From NCBI GenBank assembly GCA_002359655.1, contig DENL01000024.1:6067-70066 (forward strand): a stretch of 64,000 nucleotides of DNA. Direction: 5' to 3'. A program made the position numbers. Of this stretch, positions 27,001 to 36,000 are shown one piece after another (position 1 is the first letter of the stretch; each line of letters starts with the position of its first letter). Source of the DNA: Rickettsiales bacterium UBA2645. GTDB lineage: Bacteria; Pseudomonadota; Alphaproteobacteria; Rickettsiales; UBA1997.

Positions 27001-30000
27001 TGTTTGACAACAACTGAAACTCTTTATGGCGGAACGATTACTTGGCCTACTGCGTGGTACAATCAAGTTGTTACCGCAACCTCTCCAACCTGTTCGAGCC
27101 TGGGATATAGTGCTGGTCCAGTTAAGCCAACTAAAAGATGTGGTGCTTTTGGAGTTTGGGATGTGGTGATAAATCCTTGCCTTCAATAGCTTAAGCAGCT
27201 CTTACTCTTCTGTTTTCATTATTTTCGCGACGATCATCTCTTTTATCATTATTCCTTTTTCTATTGTCATCTTTTCCTCTCACTCTTGGTCTTCTGGAAA
27301 AAACTCTACGTTCAAAAGTTGTAATAATTATTACAAAAGCCGTTACTGCAGCATTGATTGAAAATAGCTTCAAAGCCAGTTCTTTCTCTCCAGAGTTGAT
27401 CAAATTATAAATCAAATAAAGTAGGGCTATGTTGTAAGATAGTCCGCAAGCTTTGCCGATTCTGCTGCTAATATTGTGTGATTTAAGATATCTATCTTGC
27501 CAGTTATGACGATGTCTTTGCTCTTTTTCTGCCATATCTATCAACTGAGCTACTGATCCAGGTAAAGCATCTTCAAATTTTTCTAAAATTTCTGATGAAG
27601 GAATAATATCTTTTATAGTTTCTGGTTTACGCGAGTTTTTATAATCGTTTCTTCTGTTTCTGTTATTTTGCATTTTATTTTTTTGAATTTTGTTTTGCTT
27701 TTTCAATGTCATTGCCAATGTCAAGCCAGTCTTTGTTTAGTGCGTTTATAGGATGAGCAAATGGATAGCTACTAAGTTTTGTGCTGGTAAATGGAATTAC
27801 GCAAATAAAGCCAGCAAAAAACTTACGAGCATACCTTACTAAAAAACGAATTTGATTGAATGACATATGAATTGTAATTAGTGGAAATGGGTTTTTGAAA
27901 GTAATGATTGATATGGTGTGGAGCTGCTTTCTAAGTTTTGCCAATTAAAAGCAAAGAGATTTTATTTTCGTGGATCAAGCTTTACAGAGTCTGTTTGTTT
28001 TTGGCGGAATTTAACTAGCTTTTGAGATAGCTTTTTATCAGATAAGGCCAAGATTGAAATTGCCAAAAGTGCAGAATTTTTCGCGCCGGCTTCGCCAATT
28101 GCTAGACAGCCAACTGGAACTCCAGCTGGCATTTGAGCAATCGATAAAAGAGAATCTAAACCTTTTAAAGTTTTGCTTTCAACTGGAACGCCAAGAACCG
28201 GCAAATCTGTCATCGCAGCCACCATCCCCGGAAGGTGTGCGGCTCCACCAGCTCCAGCAATAACTATTTTAACTCCTTTTGCTTTTGCTGATTCACAAAA
28301 TTCATAAAGTCTTTTTGTTGTGCGATGTGCTGAAACAACTTTAGCTTCATAAGCAACATTGAATTCATCCAAAATTTTGCAAGCATGTTGCATAGTCACA
28401 AAATCTGATTTGCTGCCCATGATTATTGAAATTAAGGGAACATTCATAAAAATTTAAAATAGTTATGTAGATTTTTTACGTACAGTCAGTACTAGAAATT
28501 ACTTGGCTAGGACAGCTATTATCATATAACCAATTGGCATTTCCGCTACCAGCTATGCCCTGAGAAGTTCCGCAGCCACAACTTTCTATTGTAGAAAGTT
28601 GACCATCTTTACAAGTTACCTGAATAATTCCTGAAGTTTTATTATCATGATTTTGATATTGGCATGCTTTCTTAGAAGAGCCATGCGACAAGGTGCCAAG
28701 AGAAAATTCAATTTTGTTATTACTAGGACATTTGCCCTTTAATCCATAACAATCATTACGATTATTTTTAGTTGCCAAGCAATAACCATCGCCGCTGTAT
28801 ATTTTAGAAGAATCATTGCAGCTTCTACATGCTAAACAATCATTACTAACACTCCAAGTACCAACTCCGTTAGAGTTTATACAGGTCATTGTTGGTGAAG
28901 CTGAAATTCTATCGGTAACATTTACTCCACAAGTACTATCCGATCCACCAGATCCAAAAGCATGACCATAACCACTTTTACAATTCAGTGTTGATGGAGA
29001 AGATCCCACATTTACGGTTGTCGTAGGCCCACTGTAATACGATCCTGAGCCATAATTTGCTCCACTAGTAAGCGAGCAAGTTATTTGGGAGCAAGCTGTT
29101 CCGCTGCTAAGAGCGTAGTAGTATTGGTCAATATTACTATTGCTTGACATTTTTTGACATTTATAAACTGGCATTGAATTAGAGCCATAATTGGAGCTTG
29201 AGCAAGAAGAAACTTTTATAGTTTTGTCTGCTGCAATAAATGAAGATAATATCGTCGAGGTTGTTGGATTTGCACCCAAGGTAGTACCGATTCTAGAATT
29301 ATTAACTGTACCAGCATTAGTAGCACATTGAATAACTGGATCACTCCACTTATAATTTGTATTACAATATCTGGTGACAATAAATTTACCATTTGTTCGG
29401 CCAGATGCAGAGTAGTCAGTAGCAGTTTGAGTAGCCTTATCATCTGAACCAACAACATTGCCACTAGTGTTATATGCGATGGTTTGAATATCGGTTGTTC
29501 CGGCAGAAATTGAATTCCATCTTATAGCTACTTTTCCATACTGGGAAGTTGAAAATGAGCTCTGACCAATACCTTCTCTGGTGTCTGTATCATATCCTGG
29601 GCATTTATTAACACAGCTTGATGAAGTATTAGTCCATACATTTGCAGTACCTCCTGCAACAGTAACAGACTGGCATGATCTGGTTGGAGCAGACTCAGCT
29701 GCTTTTGAAATACTAGGAGTCGGTGATATTGTATTGCCACTACTATCTTTTAATGCTGAGTAAGGATATGGGCTATATCCACTAATACACGTTCCAGTTG
29801 CTACAACCGATCCTCCAACATTTACGTTAGTAACAGCCGTCCAAGTTGCATTTCCATCATTTGAACCCGGATTGGTAATGGCATTACACGATGTTACGCA
29901 AGGGTTACGAATCTCACTCCAAGTTCCATCTGACAGACAATCTGCTTCTGGCTGAGAACCACCTAAAGCTTGGAAGAAACCAAGTTTAGTATTACAATAT

Positions 30001-33000: not shown

Positions 33001-36000
33001 GGTTGAGGACGATAAAACCAAGAGTTGGTATCATCAGATAATTCTTGGGTACCGCCGTCCGAAGGATTATATGAGGTACACTCCGTAGTAGAAGCATTGG
33101 CTGCAATATTGCAATCAACTGTTTTATAGCACTGACCTAAATCTTTTAGACATGGTTGACCATCAATACAGGCGGTAGTGGCACATACTGATCCGCCACC
33201 AGCAGTATCGCAGCTTGGATCTGGCGTAGTTCCATTATTCAAGCATTGATGAGGAGTATAAATTATTGGTTTACAGACGACTGGGTTGCAAATTGAGGTA
33301 TCTGATAAAGATAGCCCAAGATTGATATAAGTAGAATAAAGATCTGGATAGGATTTTGTAGTACCATCACTAAACGCTAAAGAAGTAACATTATTAGAAA
33401 TGTTAAGAGTATCATCAACTCCGACAACATCTCTGCCACAAGAAGTTGTGGCTGGTTTACAATTATGAATTTGACACATCGTATTATCTGAACGGTATCT
33501 TACATAAGGAAGTTGAGCCGCTGTGAAACTATAACATTTAATAGAATCACCTTCGCAATATTTAGCAAAGTAAGGGTCACTATCATTTTGCATTCTTGAT
33601 TCATCAAGCTCATCAGGCACTAGAGTGTTGCAAGGGGCATTAGTACAATTTGTAGCTGTCGGTAAAACACTGCTATCCAGCTGATGACATTTTCTATAAA
33701 TACAATTACCAACTGATCCGGCAGCAGCATTTCTGGGATTTGGAGTCATTGAATCTGGCATTTTATCGCAGAATCTAACACAAGTAATATTATGACCAGT
33801 AGTACCGTCTAGTATGTCGGTGGTTTGATTACATTCGTTAACGCAGTTTTTTTGTGCAGATGCACTATTACCTAGTTGGTTACATAAAGGCATGTCGATT
33901 AGGTCAGCACAGTTTGCTCTAGGACTCGGAGTTAAACCACTATCTTTAACTGAAACGGAAGATGATGTTTGGCTGCAAAGAGGAAGATCTAGGTAATAAC
34001 AATTGACACCAGCTTTTGGATCTGAAGATCCATTTGTTGAAGTTGCTGCCGTCAGTGCGGAACAGCTTGGTAAACAATTAACTCCAGGATTTGGAGAAGT
34101 AGTAACTGAGCAAGAAGGATAAACGCAATTAACTCCGGGATTTTTTGTTCCACTATAAGTCTTACAGGATGAGAGAGTGCCCAAAGAATCTTTTGATTGA
34201 AGAAAAAATAAGCTTCCTAAAATTAGAGCAGCAAAAATGGTTAAGCATAAAGATGCCTTTGAAGCTAGTTTTTTACTAAGTTTAGGAATTTTGTAAGTCA
34301 TCAAAAGTTTTGCAGAAAAAGTCGCCTCTTTCTTCGAAGTTTTTCCATTGATCAAATGAAGCGCAAGCGGGTGAAAGTAAAATGTTCTTTTCTTTTTCGC
34401 TATGCTTTTTTGCCTCTAAAAATGATTGTGTTATGGCGTTTTTTAAATCACCGCATTTTACAAAACTAACAGAATTTTTTTCTAAAACTGTCGCAAATTC
34501 CTCGCTTGCTTCGCCGACTAGAAAAGCTTTAACAATTTTTTTGAAGTATGGTTGTAAGCTTGCAATTCCGCCTTCTTTAGCTTTACCACCTAAAATCCAA
34601 AAAATATTATTGTAAGCTTTAAGAGCATTTTCAGTTGATTCAGCGTTAGTAGCTTTGCTGTCGTTGATGAATTTTACTCCACTAATTTCACCAAGTAATT
34701 GCATACGATGACGCAGGCCTTTGAATTTTTTGATTGCTGAAATTATTTCGTCTTCTGATTTTATAATAGAACTATGACTAAGTTGACAGTAAGTAATCGC
34801 AAAAGCAAAAGCCATATTTTGATCATTATGCTTACCAGTTAAAAAATCTGATTTTAATTCTAGCTGCGAATTAGCGCCGTTAATTTTATTTACCAATTTT
34901 CTATCAAAAAGTGCGACACCATTTTCATAGATTTTTTTAGTTGAAATTGGAATCAACTGAGCACGAAAGTTTTTATCATTTTTGAGTTCTTCAAAAACTT
35001 GGTGCGAATTTTCATTATCGACATCGATCAGTGCAAAATCTTGATCTGTTTGGTTTTGAAAGATTCTTTTTTTGGCAGCAATGTAAGCTTTCATTGAGCC
35101 ATGACGATCGATATGATCAGGAGTGATATTTAGAAGAGCGGCAACTCCAAAATGAGTTTTACTTAATAGATCAAGTTGAAAAGAAGAGGTTTCAAAAACA
35201 TAAGAAAAATTTTTTTGATTTTGTGGTAAGTCAAAGCATGGTACGCCGATATTTCCGCCAATTTCAGAAGCAATACCAAGCTCTTTAAAAATAAATCCAG
35301 TAAGCGCTGTAGTTGTGGATTTTCCGTTAGTTCCAGTGATGCCGATAAAATTATTTTCATGATTTCGGCGATAAAAAATTTCGATATCACAAGCCAGATC
35401 AGCGCCAGTATTTTTACAAATTTCTAAAATTTTGTGAGGTTTTGGAAAGTAAAGAGGAATTCCGGGAGAGAAGCTGATTGTGGTTTCAGAATCGTATTTT
35501 ATTTCATCAGCTTTTTGAAATTTTATTTCGCTGAATTTTTTCTGATTATCTGCAATAACCTTTTCATTGTCGTCGGTTGCAATTAGGCTTTCGCCTTTAT
35601 GCGTCAAAAATTTTGCAGTTGCAATTCCAGAGATTCCAAGACCATAAATAATATATTTCATTTAAGTGCGCAGTTTTGAAATTGCTTGAGAGTAATTCTT
35701 TGAAGTAAAGATATATGAACCAGAAACCAAAACGTCAGCACCAGCTGAAACAACGAGTTTAGAGGTTTCTTGGTTTATTCCGCCATCAACTTCTAAATCA
35801 ATTTTTTTACCTACTTTATCAATTTTTTTTCTGATGTTTTCAATTTTTCTTAATTGCGAATCTAAAAATTTTTGACCGCCAAATCCGGGGTTGACAGTCA
35901 TCACTAGAATTAGGTCGAGTTTTTCTAAAATGTAATCCAGAGAATCTTCGTGAGTTGAAGGAACAAGAGAAACACCAGCTTTTTTATTAAAAGATTTAAT

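What the first reader, a model, noticed from the sequence alone, without database searches (positions are those of the whole stretch)
28476..34355. 1959-aa cysteine-rich giant surface/secreted protein of no recognisable bacterial adhesin class
A single uninterrupted 5.9-kb ORF sits between purE and murD, and its start overlaps the murD 3' end. It has an N-terminal hydrophobic anchor or signal and about 103 Cys by hand count (33 in the first 440 aa). Composition is dominated by S/T/N/G with few charged residues. Short PGVNC/AGVNC and (D)(L/M)PLC(S/N)Q repeats lie near the N-terminus (nt 33996..34142). The central part (about aa 440-1000) is Cys-poorer. There is no autotransporter barrel, no RTX/Ig/cadherin-like periodicity and no LPXTG. 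Heavily disulfide-bonded giant proteins are rare in bacteria; the chlamydial cysteine-rich envelope proteins are the nearest conceptual analogue. This suggests an extracellular, host-facing or envelope cross-linking role.
Basis: partly seen in the sequence, partly recalled or inferred. Interest (0 to 1): 0.8.

Follow-up and report, generated by a model that had tools for sequence, protein, structure and literature searches.

The report
Giant disulfide-rich protein with swappable tip
A 1,941-residue, cysteine-packed exported protein is a conserved core gene of an uncultured group of Rickettsiales-like water bacteria; it joins a large region unlike any known protein to a string of animal-type 'Sushi' modules and a tip that is exchanged between lineages, so it is the best candidate for how these bacteria recognise a partner cell.

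Summary
The ORF is real and functional. It most likely starts at the ATG at 34301, which gives 1,941 aa and 103 Cys. It belongs to a family of about 145 representatives, found only in unnamed low-GC MAGs labelled Rickettsiales or Alphaproteobacteria. The gene is nearly always locked between murD and purE, even where all other neighbours differ.

The architecture, N to C:
- a Sec-type signal or anchor
- a flexible stalk with eight NC-x(2-8)-C mini-loops
- about 900 aa of conserved, family-specific sequence with no sequence or fold relative
- a C-terminal Cys-rich tail of about 115 aa

After the signal, 54 of 59 orthologues have an even Cys count, which implies full disulfide pairing outside the cytoplasm. 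The body is under purifying selection (dN/dS 0.13-0.33). The tail, sometimes with the last module, has been replaced by recombination. Close relatives carry unrelated tails, and distant ones share a tail type.

Best reading (confidence about 0.45): an exported, disulfide-stabilised recognition or adhesion fibre whose tip sets specificity. Its location beyond the periplasm and its ligand are inferred, not shown. I rate it a new variant of a known kind.

The parts
28476..34301 (-). Coding sequence of the giant protein: 1941 aa from the ATG at 34301, stop codon at 28476-28478. The TTG at 34355 is only the first start-like codon of the open frame.
34191..34301 (-). aa 1-37: K-rich n-region followed by a 19-aa hydrophobic run. 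This is a Sec-type signal peptide or signal anchor. Its single Cys (C19) is not conserved.
   Evidence: The same layout occurs in all 68 homologues. Several have AxA-like sites just before a conserved 'LPxC'.
33627..34169 (-). aa 45-225: S/T/P/N-rich stalk with eight tandem (P)GxNC-x(2-8)-C mini-loops spaced 17-30 aa apart.
   Evidence: AF2 pLDDT is below 55 for most of it.
33042..33626 (-). aa 226-420: conserved Cys-rich N-terminal domain, with about half of the 32 Cys of aa 41-420. Many of its Cys are invariant across the family.
31497..33041 (-). aa 421-935: the most conserved, mostly beta, family-specific core. Invariant residues include D637, R641, R643, D656, R709, T796-D797-F798, K856 and R889. 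It has no homologue or fold match.
30906..31496 (-). aa 936-1132: connector with a disulfide-stapled helical hairpin (aa ~987-1021) and a small Cys-rich unit that ends in the invariant 'QTxREAGLC' motif.
29607..30905 (-). aa 1133-1565: Sushi/HRM-type modules A (1133-1243), B (1244-1361), C (1362-1470) and D (1471-1565). Each has C1('CPAI')...C2('CxxGF/Y')...C3('CxxxGxW')...C4, with 4-5-aa linkers and enlarged C1-C2 loops.
29328..29606 (-). aa 1566-1658: module E. It is all-beta and confidently modelled, keeps only C1/C3 and the Trp, and its profile is not related to the other modules.
28830..29327 (-). aa 1659-1824: Sushi-type modules F (1659-1739, lacks the Trp) and G (1740-1824). Module G is part of the exchanged segment in some lineages.
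28479..28829 (-). aa 1825-1941: hypervariable Cys-rich C-terminal tail (11 Cys) following the conserved 'C-x-A-C-R-x-C' boundary. It is replaced by recombination between lineages. The window's tail type is shared with the distant relatives L029 and L007.
34282..35661 (-). murD. Its last 20 nt overlap the giant gene's start. This coupling is conserved throughout the family.
27962..28447 (-). purE, 28 nt downstream of the giant gene's stop. It is the third member of the conserved triad.

Best explanation
The gene encodes a Sec-exported, fully disulfide-bonded modular fibre used for cell-surface recognition or adhesion.

Proposed course:
- The gene is co-transcribed with murD and probably translationally coupled to it.
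- The N-terminal signal or anchor takes the chain across the inner membrane.
- About 51 disulfides form in the oxidising compartment.
- A flexible stalk with eight small CxnC loops is followed by a ~900-aa conserved family-specific body. This body carries a chain of six or seven enlarged Sushi/HRM-type modules.
- The chain ends in a ~115-aa Cys-rich tip. The tip is the specificity determinant, and lineages exchange it by recombination, sometimes together with the last Sushi module.

Shown here: the gene is real and under purifying selection; the signal-like N-terminus; the even Cys counts; the Sushi/HRM homology of the modules; the tip replacement with sharp breakpoints; the vertical inheritance as a core gene.

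Inferred: export, disulfide formation, exposure beyond the outer membrane, a binding function, and the nature of the partner (a protist host, prey or another cell).
For: 1. The gene is functional.
- 68 full-length homologues share 28-60% identity.
- 53 loci were found in GTDB species representatives.
- About 70 Cys are invariant.
- dN/dS is 0.13-0.33 over the body.
- GC and GC3 match those of the neighbouring genes.

2. The protein is extracytoplasmic and disulfide-bonded.
- All members have a K/R-rich n-region and a 15-20-aa hydrophobic run, and nothing else hydrophobic.
- 54 of 59 orthologues have an even Cys count after the signal, ranging from 86 to 114. The window protein has 102.

3. It carries binding-type modules.
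- Pfam Sushi, Ephrin_CRD or HRM hits occur in 7, 11 and 3 of 42 C-terminal halves. Sushi is above the gathering threshold in P0012 and P0040, and Ephrin_CRD in P0029.
- The module profiles are homologous to each other at 93-96% hhalign probability.
- The C-part profile matches P0210, a strong Sushi/HRM repeat protein, at E 1e-50 by HMM search and at 99.3% probability and E 4.8e-20 by hhalign.
- The AF2 model of the C-part has pLDDT 81.7. Its top Foldseek hits are CD46 SCR1-4, Eph ectodomains and the E-selectin SCRs.

4. The tip is a specificity determinant.
- Tails are unrelated between relatives whose bodies are 83-84% identical. Nucleotide identity falls from 0.85-0.98 to about 0.4 at a sharp boundary.
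- Tails are shared between lineages whose bodies are 36-41% identical. Window versus L029 gives E 1.5e-28, and L001 versus L016 gives E 3e-45.

5. Length is not constrained. Orthologues of 1,800-4,300 aa occupy the same locus.

6. The genome has host-interaction features: scattered virB8, virB9 and virB10 genes, and ankyrin and LRR proteins in the window.
Against: - No feature that would take the protein across the outer membrane was found. Pfam and NCBIfam show no barrel and no T1SS, T5SS, T9SS, LPXTG or PEP-CTERM signature. By default, a Sec signal alone leaves a protein in the periplasm or anchored in the inner membrane.
- A single-copy core gene welded to murD looks more like a housekeeping envelope component than a typical adhesin.
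- The window protein itself is below Pfam's Sushi threshold, at 9.2 bits against 20.7.
- Profile searches against PDB sequences find nothing, and the Foldseek hits have E > 0.01.
- No host, expression or localisation data exist.
- The organism keeps purine and amino-acid biosynthesis, so host dependence is not established.
- SignalP-type prediction could not be run, so cleavage versus anchoring remains open.
Confidence: 0.45

Rival explanations
1. It is a periplasmic or envelope scaffold. The protein stays anchored in the inner membrane or free in the periplasm. There it forms a disulfide-stabilised, possibly cross-linked structural layer that works with the cell wall.
For: - The only sorting feature is the N-terminal signal or anchor.
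- The murD-giant-purE triad, with its start/stop overlap, is kept even where MurD is only ~41-47% identical and the other neighbours differ.
- It is a single-copy core gene in nearly all relatives.
- The even Cys counts show an oxidising compartment, which the periplasm is.
Against: - A structural periplasmic layer gives no reason for a recombining, hypervariable C-terminal tip.
- It also gives no reason for orthologue lengths ranging from 1,800 to 4,300 aa.
- Sushi/HRM modules are recognition modules in every characterised case (established knowledge).
- Even Cys parity argues for intramolecular pairing, not free thiols for intermolecular cross-links.
- There is no homology to OmcA/OmcB.
Confidence: 0.25
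2. It is a polymorphic toxin or effector. The conserved body is a delivery filament, and the exchangeable Cys-rich C-terminal tail is a toxin-like or effector mini-domain acting on target cells.
For: - The layout is a conserved body plus a cassette-like C-terminal ~110-135 aa, with a conserved boundary motif (C-x-A-C-R-x-C). The sharp recombination breakpoints resemble CdiA/Rhs/MafB-type systems.
- Small domains with 8-12 Cys are common among eukaryote-directed toxins (established knowledge).
Against: - There is no immunity gene. purE follows after 28 nt in essentially all loci.
- No orphan tail cassettes lie within +-10 kb.
- There are no TPS, FHA, Rhs or YD repeats and no known toxin domain.
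- All tail types keep a common C(V/I/K)DG framework, which suggests variants of one binding fold.
Confidence: 0.12
3. It is a recently acquired eukaryotic gene or a contaminating eukaryotic fragment, given the animal-type Sushi modules.
For: Sushi, HRM and Ephrin_CRD are overwhelmingly eukaryotic families. The only non-family relative, P0210, sits on an unrelated 66% GC contig.
Against: - GC is 0.38 and GC3 0.237, within the range of the neighbouring genes.
- The gene is embedded in a bacterial operon, overlapping murD.
- It has been inherited vertically with conserved synteny across 40+ species-level genomes.
- The module order A-H is conserved in the most divergent members.
- Any transfer of the module type must therefore be ancient.
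Confidence: 0.03
4. It is a non-functional ORF or a decaying pseudogene.
For: A few relatives (L038, L043, L053) show the gene split into two ORFs.
Against: - Full-length intact orthologues occur in more than 60 lineages.
- Cys, Trp and Gly residues are invariant.
- dN/dS is well below 1.
- The splits are rare and occur in low-coverage MAGs.
Confidence: 0.01

Closest known systems
Eukaryotic Sushi/CCP/SCR-repeat proteins (CD46, factor H, selectins), the related Eph-receptor cysteine-rich domain, and the HRM ectodomain of class B GPCRs
   Same: - Tandem small all-beta modules with four conserved Cys and a Trp between C3 and C4.
- A 'CP' motif at the module start and linkers of 4-5 residues.
- Members of the family hit the Pfam Sushi, Ephrin_CRD and HRM models.
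- The top structural neighbours of the AF2 model are these proteins.
   Different: - The protein is bacterial.
- The modules are 83-120 aa instead of ~60, because of insertions in the C1-C2 loop.
- There is an extra conserved Trp after C1, which is HRM-like.
- The window protein itself is below Pfam's threshold.
- The modules are attached to 1,100 aa of unrelated, family-specific sequence.
P0210, an uncharacterised 1,636-aa protein made of ~25 tandem Sushi/HRM units (66% GC metagenomic contig, JGI 3300071654)
   Same: It is the only non-family sequence relative of the C-terminal modules: E 1e-50, and hhalign probability 99.3% over 435 columns.
   Different: - It has compact ~58-aa units only.
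- It lacks the N-terminal body, stalk and tail.
- It comes from an unrelated high-GC organism in a different genomic context.
Giant bacterial adhesins (RTX/T1SS adhesins such as LapA, SiiE and MpIBP; Bap; the Rickettsia Sca autotransporters)
   Same: Size, modular repeat architecture, S/T/N/G-rich low-charge composition and a presumed role in contact with other cells.
   Different: - It has no BIg or cadherin repeats, no RTX or T1SS signal and no autotransporter barrel.
- It has a Sec-type N-terminus.
- It is 5% Cys, whereas those adhesins are nearly Cys-free.
- It is a single-copy syntenic core gene.
Polymorphic toxin / contact-dependent systems (CdiA, Rhs, MafB) and phage receptor-binding proteins
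   Same: A conserved body with a C-terminal segment that is swapped by recombination behind a conserved boundary motif.
   Different: There is no immunity gene, no orphan cassettes, no TPS/FHA/YD repeats and no known toxin fold.
Chlamydial cysteine-rich envelope proteins OmcA/OmcB
   Same: Cys-rich envelope-associated proteins of bacteria that interact with eukaryotes. The similarity is conceptual only.
   Different: - There is no sequence or domain similarity.
- OmcB is ~60 kDa and relies on intermolecular cross-links. Here the even Cys parity points to intramolecular pairs.

Membership tests
Sushi/CCP/SCR domain superfamily (Pfam PF00084 and the related HRM and Ephrin_CRD), C-terminal modules only | Four conserved Cys per module in the order C1...C2...C3...C4 | tested here: met
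   - Modules A, B, C, D, F and G each have four family-invariant Cys. The C2-C3 spacing is 14-38 aa, C3-C4 is 13-22 aa and linkers are 4-5 aa.
- Module E has only C1 and C3.
Sushi/CCP/SCR domain superfamily | Conserved Trp between C3 and C4 | tested here: met
   W1231, W1352, W1461, W1556, W1652 and W1816 lie in modules A-E and G. Four of them are invariant across the family (W1461 is nearly invariant; W1816 is conserved only in the consensus). Module F has Tyr instead.
Sushi/CCP/SCR domain superfamily | Module length of about 60 residues | tested here: not met
   The modules are 83-120 aa, with large and partly variable insertions between C1 and C2.
Sushi/CCP/SCR domain superfamily | Match to the curated Pfam model above its gathering score | tested here: inconclusive
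   - The window protein scores 9.2 bits against a cut-off of 20.7.
- The orthologues P0012 (25.7), P0040 (25.4) and P0063 (20.8) pass for Sushi. P0029 passes for Ephrin_CRD at 30.9 against 27.
- 7 of 42 C-halves hit Sushi and 11 of 42 hit Ephrin_CRD at E <= 0.01.
Sushi/CCP/SCR domain superfamily | Profile-level homology to an undisputed Sushi/HRM repeat protein | tested here: met
   - The family C-part profile matches P0210 at E 1e-50. hhalign gives probability 99.3% and E 4.8e-20 over 435 columns spanning modules A-G.
- P0210 itself scores 202 bits for HRM and 97.5 bits for Sushi.
Sushi/CCP/SCR domain superfamily | Beta-sandwich fold with C1-C3 and C2-C4 disulfides | tested here: inconclusive
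   - The AF2 model is all-beta with pLDDT 81.7, and above 90 for aa ~1500-1830.
- The best Foldseek PDB hits are CCP proteins, but at E 0.015-0.1.
Chlamydial cysteine-rich envelope proteins (OmcA/OmcB) | Homology to the Chlamydia OMP6/OmcB family, a lipoprotein or ~60-kDa architecture | tested here: not met
   No Pfam or NCBIfam hit at E <= 10. There is no lipobox: C19 lies at the start of the h-region and is not conserved.
T1SS RTX / Bap-type giant adhesins | BIg or cadherin-like tandem repeats with a C-terminal RTX nonapeptide and T1SS signal | tested here: not met
   No such Pfam or NCBIfam hits. The C-terminus is Cys-rich and hypervariable. The protein has a Sec-type N-terminus.
Autotransporters / two-partner secretion (T5SS) | C-terminal beta-barrel translocator or N-terminal TPS domain with a TpsB partner gene | tested here: not met
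   There are no barrel or TPS hits. The AF2 C-part consists of small beta modules. The neighbouring genes are murD and purE.
Polymorphic toxin systems (CdiA/Rhs/MafB-like) | A variable C-terminal domain behind a conserved boundary | tested here: met
   The tails are unrelated between relatives whose bodies are 83-84% identical, and the breakpoints are sharp.
Polymorphic toxin systems (CdiA/Rhs/MafB-like) | A cognate immunity gene immediately downstream, orphan CT/immunity cassettes, FHA/YD/TPS delivery repeats | tested here: not met
   purE lies 28 nt downstream. There are no extra tail copies within +-10 kb. No such repeats were found.
Type IV pilus tip adhesins (PilY1/PilC) | A PilC/PilY1 beta-propeller domain (PF05567) encoded within a minor-pilin operon | tested here: not met
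   - There is no Pfam hit.
- The central region gives only low-probability propeller-like Foldseek hits, with probability < 0.1, and has no blade repeats.
- The nearby prepilin-type gene is on the other strand, and its adjacency is lost in divergent relatives.

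The most novel reading that the evidence does not exclude
The family is a previously unrecognised class of bacterial cell-recognition fibre. It is a murD-coupled core-genome protein built from new folds (aa ~226-1132) plus eukaryote-type Sushi/HRM modules. 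Its recombining Cys-rich tip cassettes set host or prey specificity in a large uncultured Rickettsiales-like radiation. These bacteria still make their own purines and amino acids, so this could be a molecular handle on how host association begins in the group.
Probability: 0.18. Interest if true: 0.8.

Novelty: new variant of a known kind. Interest (0 to 1): 0.6.

Why it matters
Nothing is known about how the many uncultured, aquatic Rickettsiales-like lineages interact with other cells. This protein is the largest gene in the window and is conserved in essentially every relative. It is built for an oxidising extracellular or periplasmic environment. It also ends in a tip that behaves genetically like a specificity determinant.

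If it is surface-exposed, it gives three things:
- a concrete target (tip types and Sushi modules) for finding the partner organism
- a rare case of Sushi/HRM modules doing work in a bacterium
- about 900 residues of well-conserved sequence with no known relative, likely holding new folds

The unusually stable murD-giant-purE unit is also an unexplained piece of genome organisation.

Tried and rejected
- **Whole-protein and C-part profile searches against PDB sequences:** no hit at E <= 10.
- **Foldseek of the N-part model against PDB and BFVD:** only weak propeller, tail-fibre or neuraminidase-like hits, with probability < 0.2 and rmsd > 15 A. I do not treat these as a fold assignment.
- **Beta-propeller idea for aa ~535-980:** no blade-like internal repeats by windowed hhalign, so I dropped it to a remark.
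- **Exhaustive HMM search with the N-part profile:** only 145 proteins among 1.84 billion representatives, and apparently all are family members or fragments. The most divergent of these carry no informative Pfam domains. The only hit is a sub-threshold SUEL-lectin match in P0150.
- **Lipoprotein reading of C19:** rejected. There is no lipobox and the residue is not conserved.
- **Promoter and terminator scan around the gene:** no more sites than in shuffled sequence.
- **Link to the neighbouring prepilin-type gene (T2SS or type IV pilus export):** the adjacency holds only among closer relatives and is lost in L056 and L057, so it remains speculation.
- **Naming the lineage:** this failed. There is no rRNA in the window. 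No named genus appears among the LeuRS relatives. The MAG accessions are not in the supplements of the Rickettsiales phylogenomics paper PMC10847448, and the RIFCSPLOWO2 name is not in the main text of PMC9352585.
- **Literature searches for Sushi domains in bacteria or in Rickettsiales:** nothing relevant.
- **AF2 jobs with locus-derived rows or too many rows:** I solved this by aligning window fragments with whole database proteins.

Full report
**1. Observation**

The minus-strand ORF 28476..34355 is uninterrupted (1959 codons from a TTG). It lies between purE (27962-28447) and murD (34282-35661). Every orthologue starts 'MNYKIPKL...', which matches the ATG at 34301. The protein is therefore 1941 aa, and its start overlaps the murD stop by 20 nt.

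There is a single hydrophobic segment at aa ~15-37. Thirty-three Cys lie before aa ~420. Pfam and NCBIfam show no barrel, RTX, Ig, cadherin, LPXTG or other sorting signature.

Two points need correction. The 'Cys-poor centre' is really two shorter stretches, aa 409-504 and 693-937. The protein is also clearly periodic, as sections 4 and 5 show.

**2. A real, native, conserved gene**

A word-indexed search of 5.8 billion proteins found 68 homologues. Nearly all are full length (1,800-2,130 aa), share 28-60% identity and are unnamed. A scan of one genome per GTDB species found 53 loci. All are MAGs labelled Rickettsiales, Alphaproteobacteria or Pseudomonadota, or carry obviously automatic labels. 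They come from lakes, groundwater, wastewater, an estuary and the Black Sea.

About 70 Cys and many Trp, Gly and Arg residues are invariant. GC (0.38) and GC3 (0.237) fall within the range of the other 44 genes of the window (0.354 +- 0.030 and 0.272 +- 0.033). Nei-Gojobori dN/dS between five close pairs is 0.13-0.33 for the whole gene and 0.04-0.40 for every region of the body. Pseudogene, chance ORF and recent foreign origin are therefore excluded.

**3. Genomic context**

The 53 loci sort as follows:
- 37 have murD immediately upstream and purE immediately downstream. Most also show the longer string NDUFA12-MlaD-DUF2155-rpe-murD-giant-purE.
- 7 are cut by contig ends but are compatible with that order.
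- 2 have the order murD-purE-giant.
- 7 show no synteny. These include two copies in one MAG.

In very divergent members the genes beyond murD and purE differ, yet the triad and the start/stop overlap (11 nt) persist. This holds for P0146 (3,704 aa) and P0130 (2,518 aa). The triad is therefore the conserved unit. I cannot explain why.

The window also encodes:
- purF, a split purL, carA, leuC and glyA
- scattered virB8, virB9 and virB10 genes
- an ankyrin-repeat protein and an LRR protein

One relative of the gene lies on contigs of 0.95-1.09 Mb. The organism looks like a small-genome, Rickettsiales-like bacterium with host-interaction equipment that still has its own purine and amino-acid biosynthesis. 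It is not a classical obligate intracellular parasite. No named genus appears among the 120 best LeuRS relatives, all at >= 67% identity.

**4. Architecture, N-terminal part**

All members have a K/R-rich n-region and a 15-20-aa hydrophobic run. A polar stretch and a conserved 'LPxC' follow. Several have AxA-like sites just before it, for example 'AQS|LPSC'. This is a Sec signal peptide or signal anchor. I could not run a dedicated predictor.

Residues 45-225 are an S/T/P/N-rich segment with eight (P)GxNC-x(2-8)-C motifs every 17-30 aa. AF2 confidence there is below 55, which is consistent with a flexible stalk stapled by small disulfide loops.

Residues 226-1132 are the best-conserved part. 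AF2 gives pLDDT 85-93 for aa ~595-745 and predicts a disulfide-stapled helical hairpin at aa ~987-1021. This region has no relative by any test:
- no Pfam or NCBIfam hit
- nothing in PDB sequences
- no meaningful Foldseek match in PDB or BFVD
- no internal repeats

An exhaustive HMM search of 1.84 billion representatives with the N-part profile (aa 36-1135) returned only 145 proteins, and apparently all are family members or fragments. The divergent ones carry no informative Pfam domains.

**5. Architecture, C-terminal modules**

From aa 1133 the Cys pattern becomes regular: C1 ('CPAI') ... C2 ('CxxGF/Y') ... C3 ('CxxxGxW') ... C4, with 4-5-residue linkers. Several lines of evidence identify the modules.

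- **Internal homology.** Profile-profile comparison of the modules across the family gives A~C 94%, B~C 96%, B~D 96% and C~G 93%. F is weaker. E and the tail are unrelated.
- **Pfam.** Sushi, Ephrin_CRD and HRM hit 7, 11 and 3 of 42 C-terminal halves. Sushi exceeds its gathering score in P0012 and P0040, and Ephrin_CRD in P0029. The hits fall in different modules. The window protein itself reaches only 9.2 bits.
- **Transitive homology.** The family's C-part profile hits one outside protein, P0210, at E 1e-50. P0210 is a chain of ~58-aa units that scores 202 bits for HRM and 97.5 bits for Sushi. hhalign aligns 435 columns spanning modules A-G at 99.3% probability.
- **Structure.** The AF2 model of aa 1040-1941 is all-beta with pLDDT 81.7. 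Its best PDB neighbours are CD46 SCR1-4, Eph ectodomains and the E-selectin SCRs. These hits are at E 0.015-0.1, so they are supportive rather than decisive.

I conclude that the modules are genuine Sushi/HRM-type repeats enlarged by loop insertions to 83-120 aa.

The module order A-H is conserved in the most divergent orthologues. The 3,600-4,300-aa forms differ by a ~1,300-aa insertion between D and E. Others have a ~370-400-aa N-terminal extension.

**6. Disulfides**

After removing the signal segment, 54 of 59 full-length orthologues have an even number of Cys (86-114; the window protein has 102). Under independence, the chance of at least 54 even counts out of 59 is about 1e-11. The sequences are related, but their counts differ, and mostly by even numbers. 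Nearly all Cys are therefore paired. That requires folding in an oxidising compartment and argues for intramolecular rather than intermolecular bonds.

**7. The exchangeable tip**

The last ~115 aa are the least conserved part. In close pairs, tail dN is 0.3-0.98, against 0.03-0.16 in the body, and tail dS is saturated. The sequences show why. After the conserved 'C-x-A-C-R-x-C' boundary, the tails of L007 and L026 (bodies 84% identical) and of L018 and L033 (83%) are unrelated.

Conversely, distant lineages share tail types:
- The window's tail matches L029 (41% identity, E 1.5e-28) and L007 (E 4e-16), although the bodies are only ~41% identical.
- The window's nearest relatives, L001-L005, have no detectable tail similarity to it.
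- L001 and L016 share a tail (54% identity, E 3e-45) with bodies 36% identical.

The 45 tails fall into 16 clusters. Nucleotide identity profiles show sharp breakpoints:
- L007/L026: 0.85-0.95 up to aa ~1820, then 0.35-0.57.
- L018/L033: 0.90-0.98 up to aa ~1709, then 0.55-0.62 across module G, then ~0.4 in the tail.

The tip, sometimes together with module G, has therefore been replaced by recombination. No orphan tail copies exist within +-10 kb of any locus or anywhere in the 64-kb window.

**8. Interpretation**

The data fit an exported, disulfide-stabilised modular protein. Its conserved body presents a chain of recognition modules, and its polymorphic tip acts as the specificity determinant. 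In short, it looks like a recognition or adhesion fibre.

The main weakness is topology. Nothing in the sequence explains passage across the outer membrane, and the tight, ancient coupling to murD is what one would expect of an envelope housekeeping component. The periplasmic or envelope scaffold is therefore a serious rival (0.25). However, it does not explain the recombining tip or the twofold length variation of orthologues.

A polymorphic-toxin reading (0.12) explains the tip but lacks an immunity gene, orphan cassettes, delivery repeats and a toxin fold.

**9. Novelty and score**

The family is unnamed, and I found no paper describing it. It combines known ideas in an undescribed way: a modular extracytoplasmic protein, eukaryote-type domains in a host-interacting bacterium, and a conserved body with a variable tip. 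About 900 of its residues have no relative anywhere. I rate it a new variant of a known kind, with interest 0.6.

Noticed in passing
window 10859-17531 (+): purL is split into two ORFs: the N-half at 10859-11998 (model positions 1-363 of 723) and the C-half at 16518-17531 (389-721). Three same-strand genes lie between them and look like a polysaccharide O-acetylation cassette: acyltransferase-3/SucT-like at 11989-13968, MBOAT/DltB-like at 13980-15383 and AlgX-like SGNH at 15386-16501. A stand-alone 379-aa PurL N-half is also called in the distant relative L056.
   Followed up: partly
window 19865-21181, 46827-47687, 47687-48571 (+): Type IV secretion genes virB10/trbI, virB8 and virB9/cagX are scattered in separate places, as in the Rickettsiales rvh system. 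A VirD4/TraG gene lies near the giant gene in relative L057.
   Followed up: no
window 60957-63254 (+) and 9041-9898 (-): The window holds two eukaryote-like repeat proteins: a 765-aa ankyrin-repeat protein and a 285-aa leucine-rich-repeat protein. Both are typical candidate secreted effectors.
   Followed up: no
window 26188-27189 (+): A 333-aa protein has a prepilin-type N-terminal methylation motif and a weak GspG-like match. Relatives carry one to three tandem paralogues at the same position downstream of purE/DUF2335. It might point to a type II secretion or type IV pilus-like machine, but the adjacency is lost in divergent relatives.
   Followed up: partly
window 48622-51144 (+) and its database relatives: The window's LeuRS is 840 aa. 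About a third of its 120 closest relatives are 985-1,093 aa, and nearly all of those carry an extra transglutaminase-core domain (PF01841) fused to the synthetase.
   Followed up: no
L059:5126-10036 (protein P0210): This 1,636-aa protein consists of ~25 tandem Sushi/HRM units (118 Cys). It sits on a 66% GC, gene-sparse contig next to a Ser/Thr/Tyr kinase gene. It is the only sequence relative of the C-terminal modules outside the family, and its organism is unknown.
   Followed up: partly
L055, L056 and proteins P0145, P0146, P0150, P0154, P0163, P0165: One sub-lineage has orthologues of 3,600-4,300 aa, with a ~1,300-aa insertion between modules D and E. P0150 shows a sub-threshold SUEL-lectin match at aa 2001-2060, shortly after module D. 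P0088, P0099 and P0101 have a ~370-400-aa N-terminal extension.
   Followed up: partly
L012 and L021 (both from MAG CAZUPN01); L050 and L053; L004, L035, L044, L045: These are exceptions to the conserved locus. One MAG has two copies outside the usual context, with bodies 47% identical. Two genomes have the order murD-purE-giant. Several loci share no syntenic neighbour with the window, and one of them is binned as a Lentimonas MAG. These could be paralogy, rearrangement or mis-binning.
   Followed up: no
window 36316-37640 (-): The alphaproteobacterial string NDUFA12-like / MlaD / DUF2155 sits directly upstream of rpe-murD-giant and is syntenic in most relatives. Whether all seven genes form one transcript is unknown. 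The promoter and terminator scans were uninformative.
   Followed up: no
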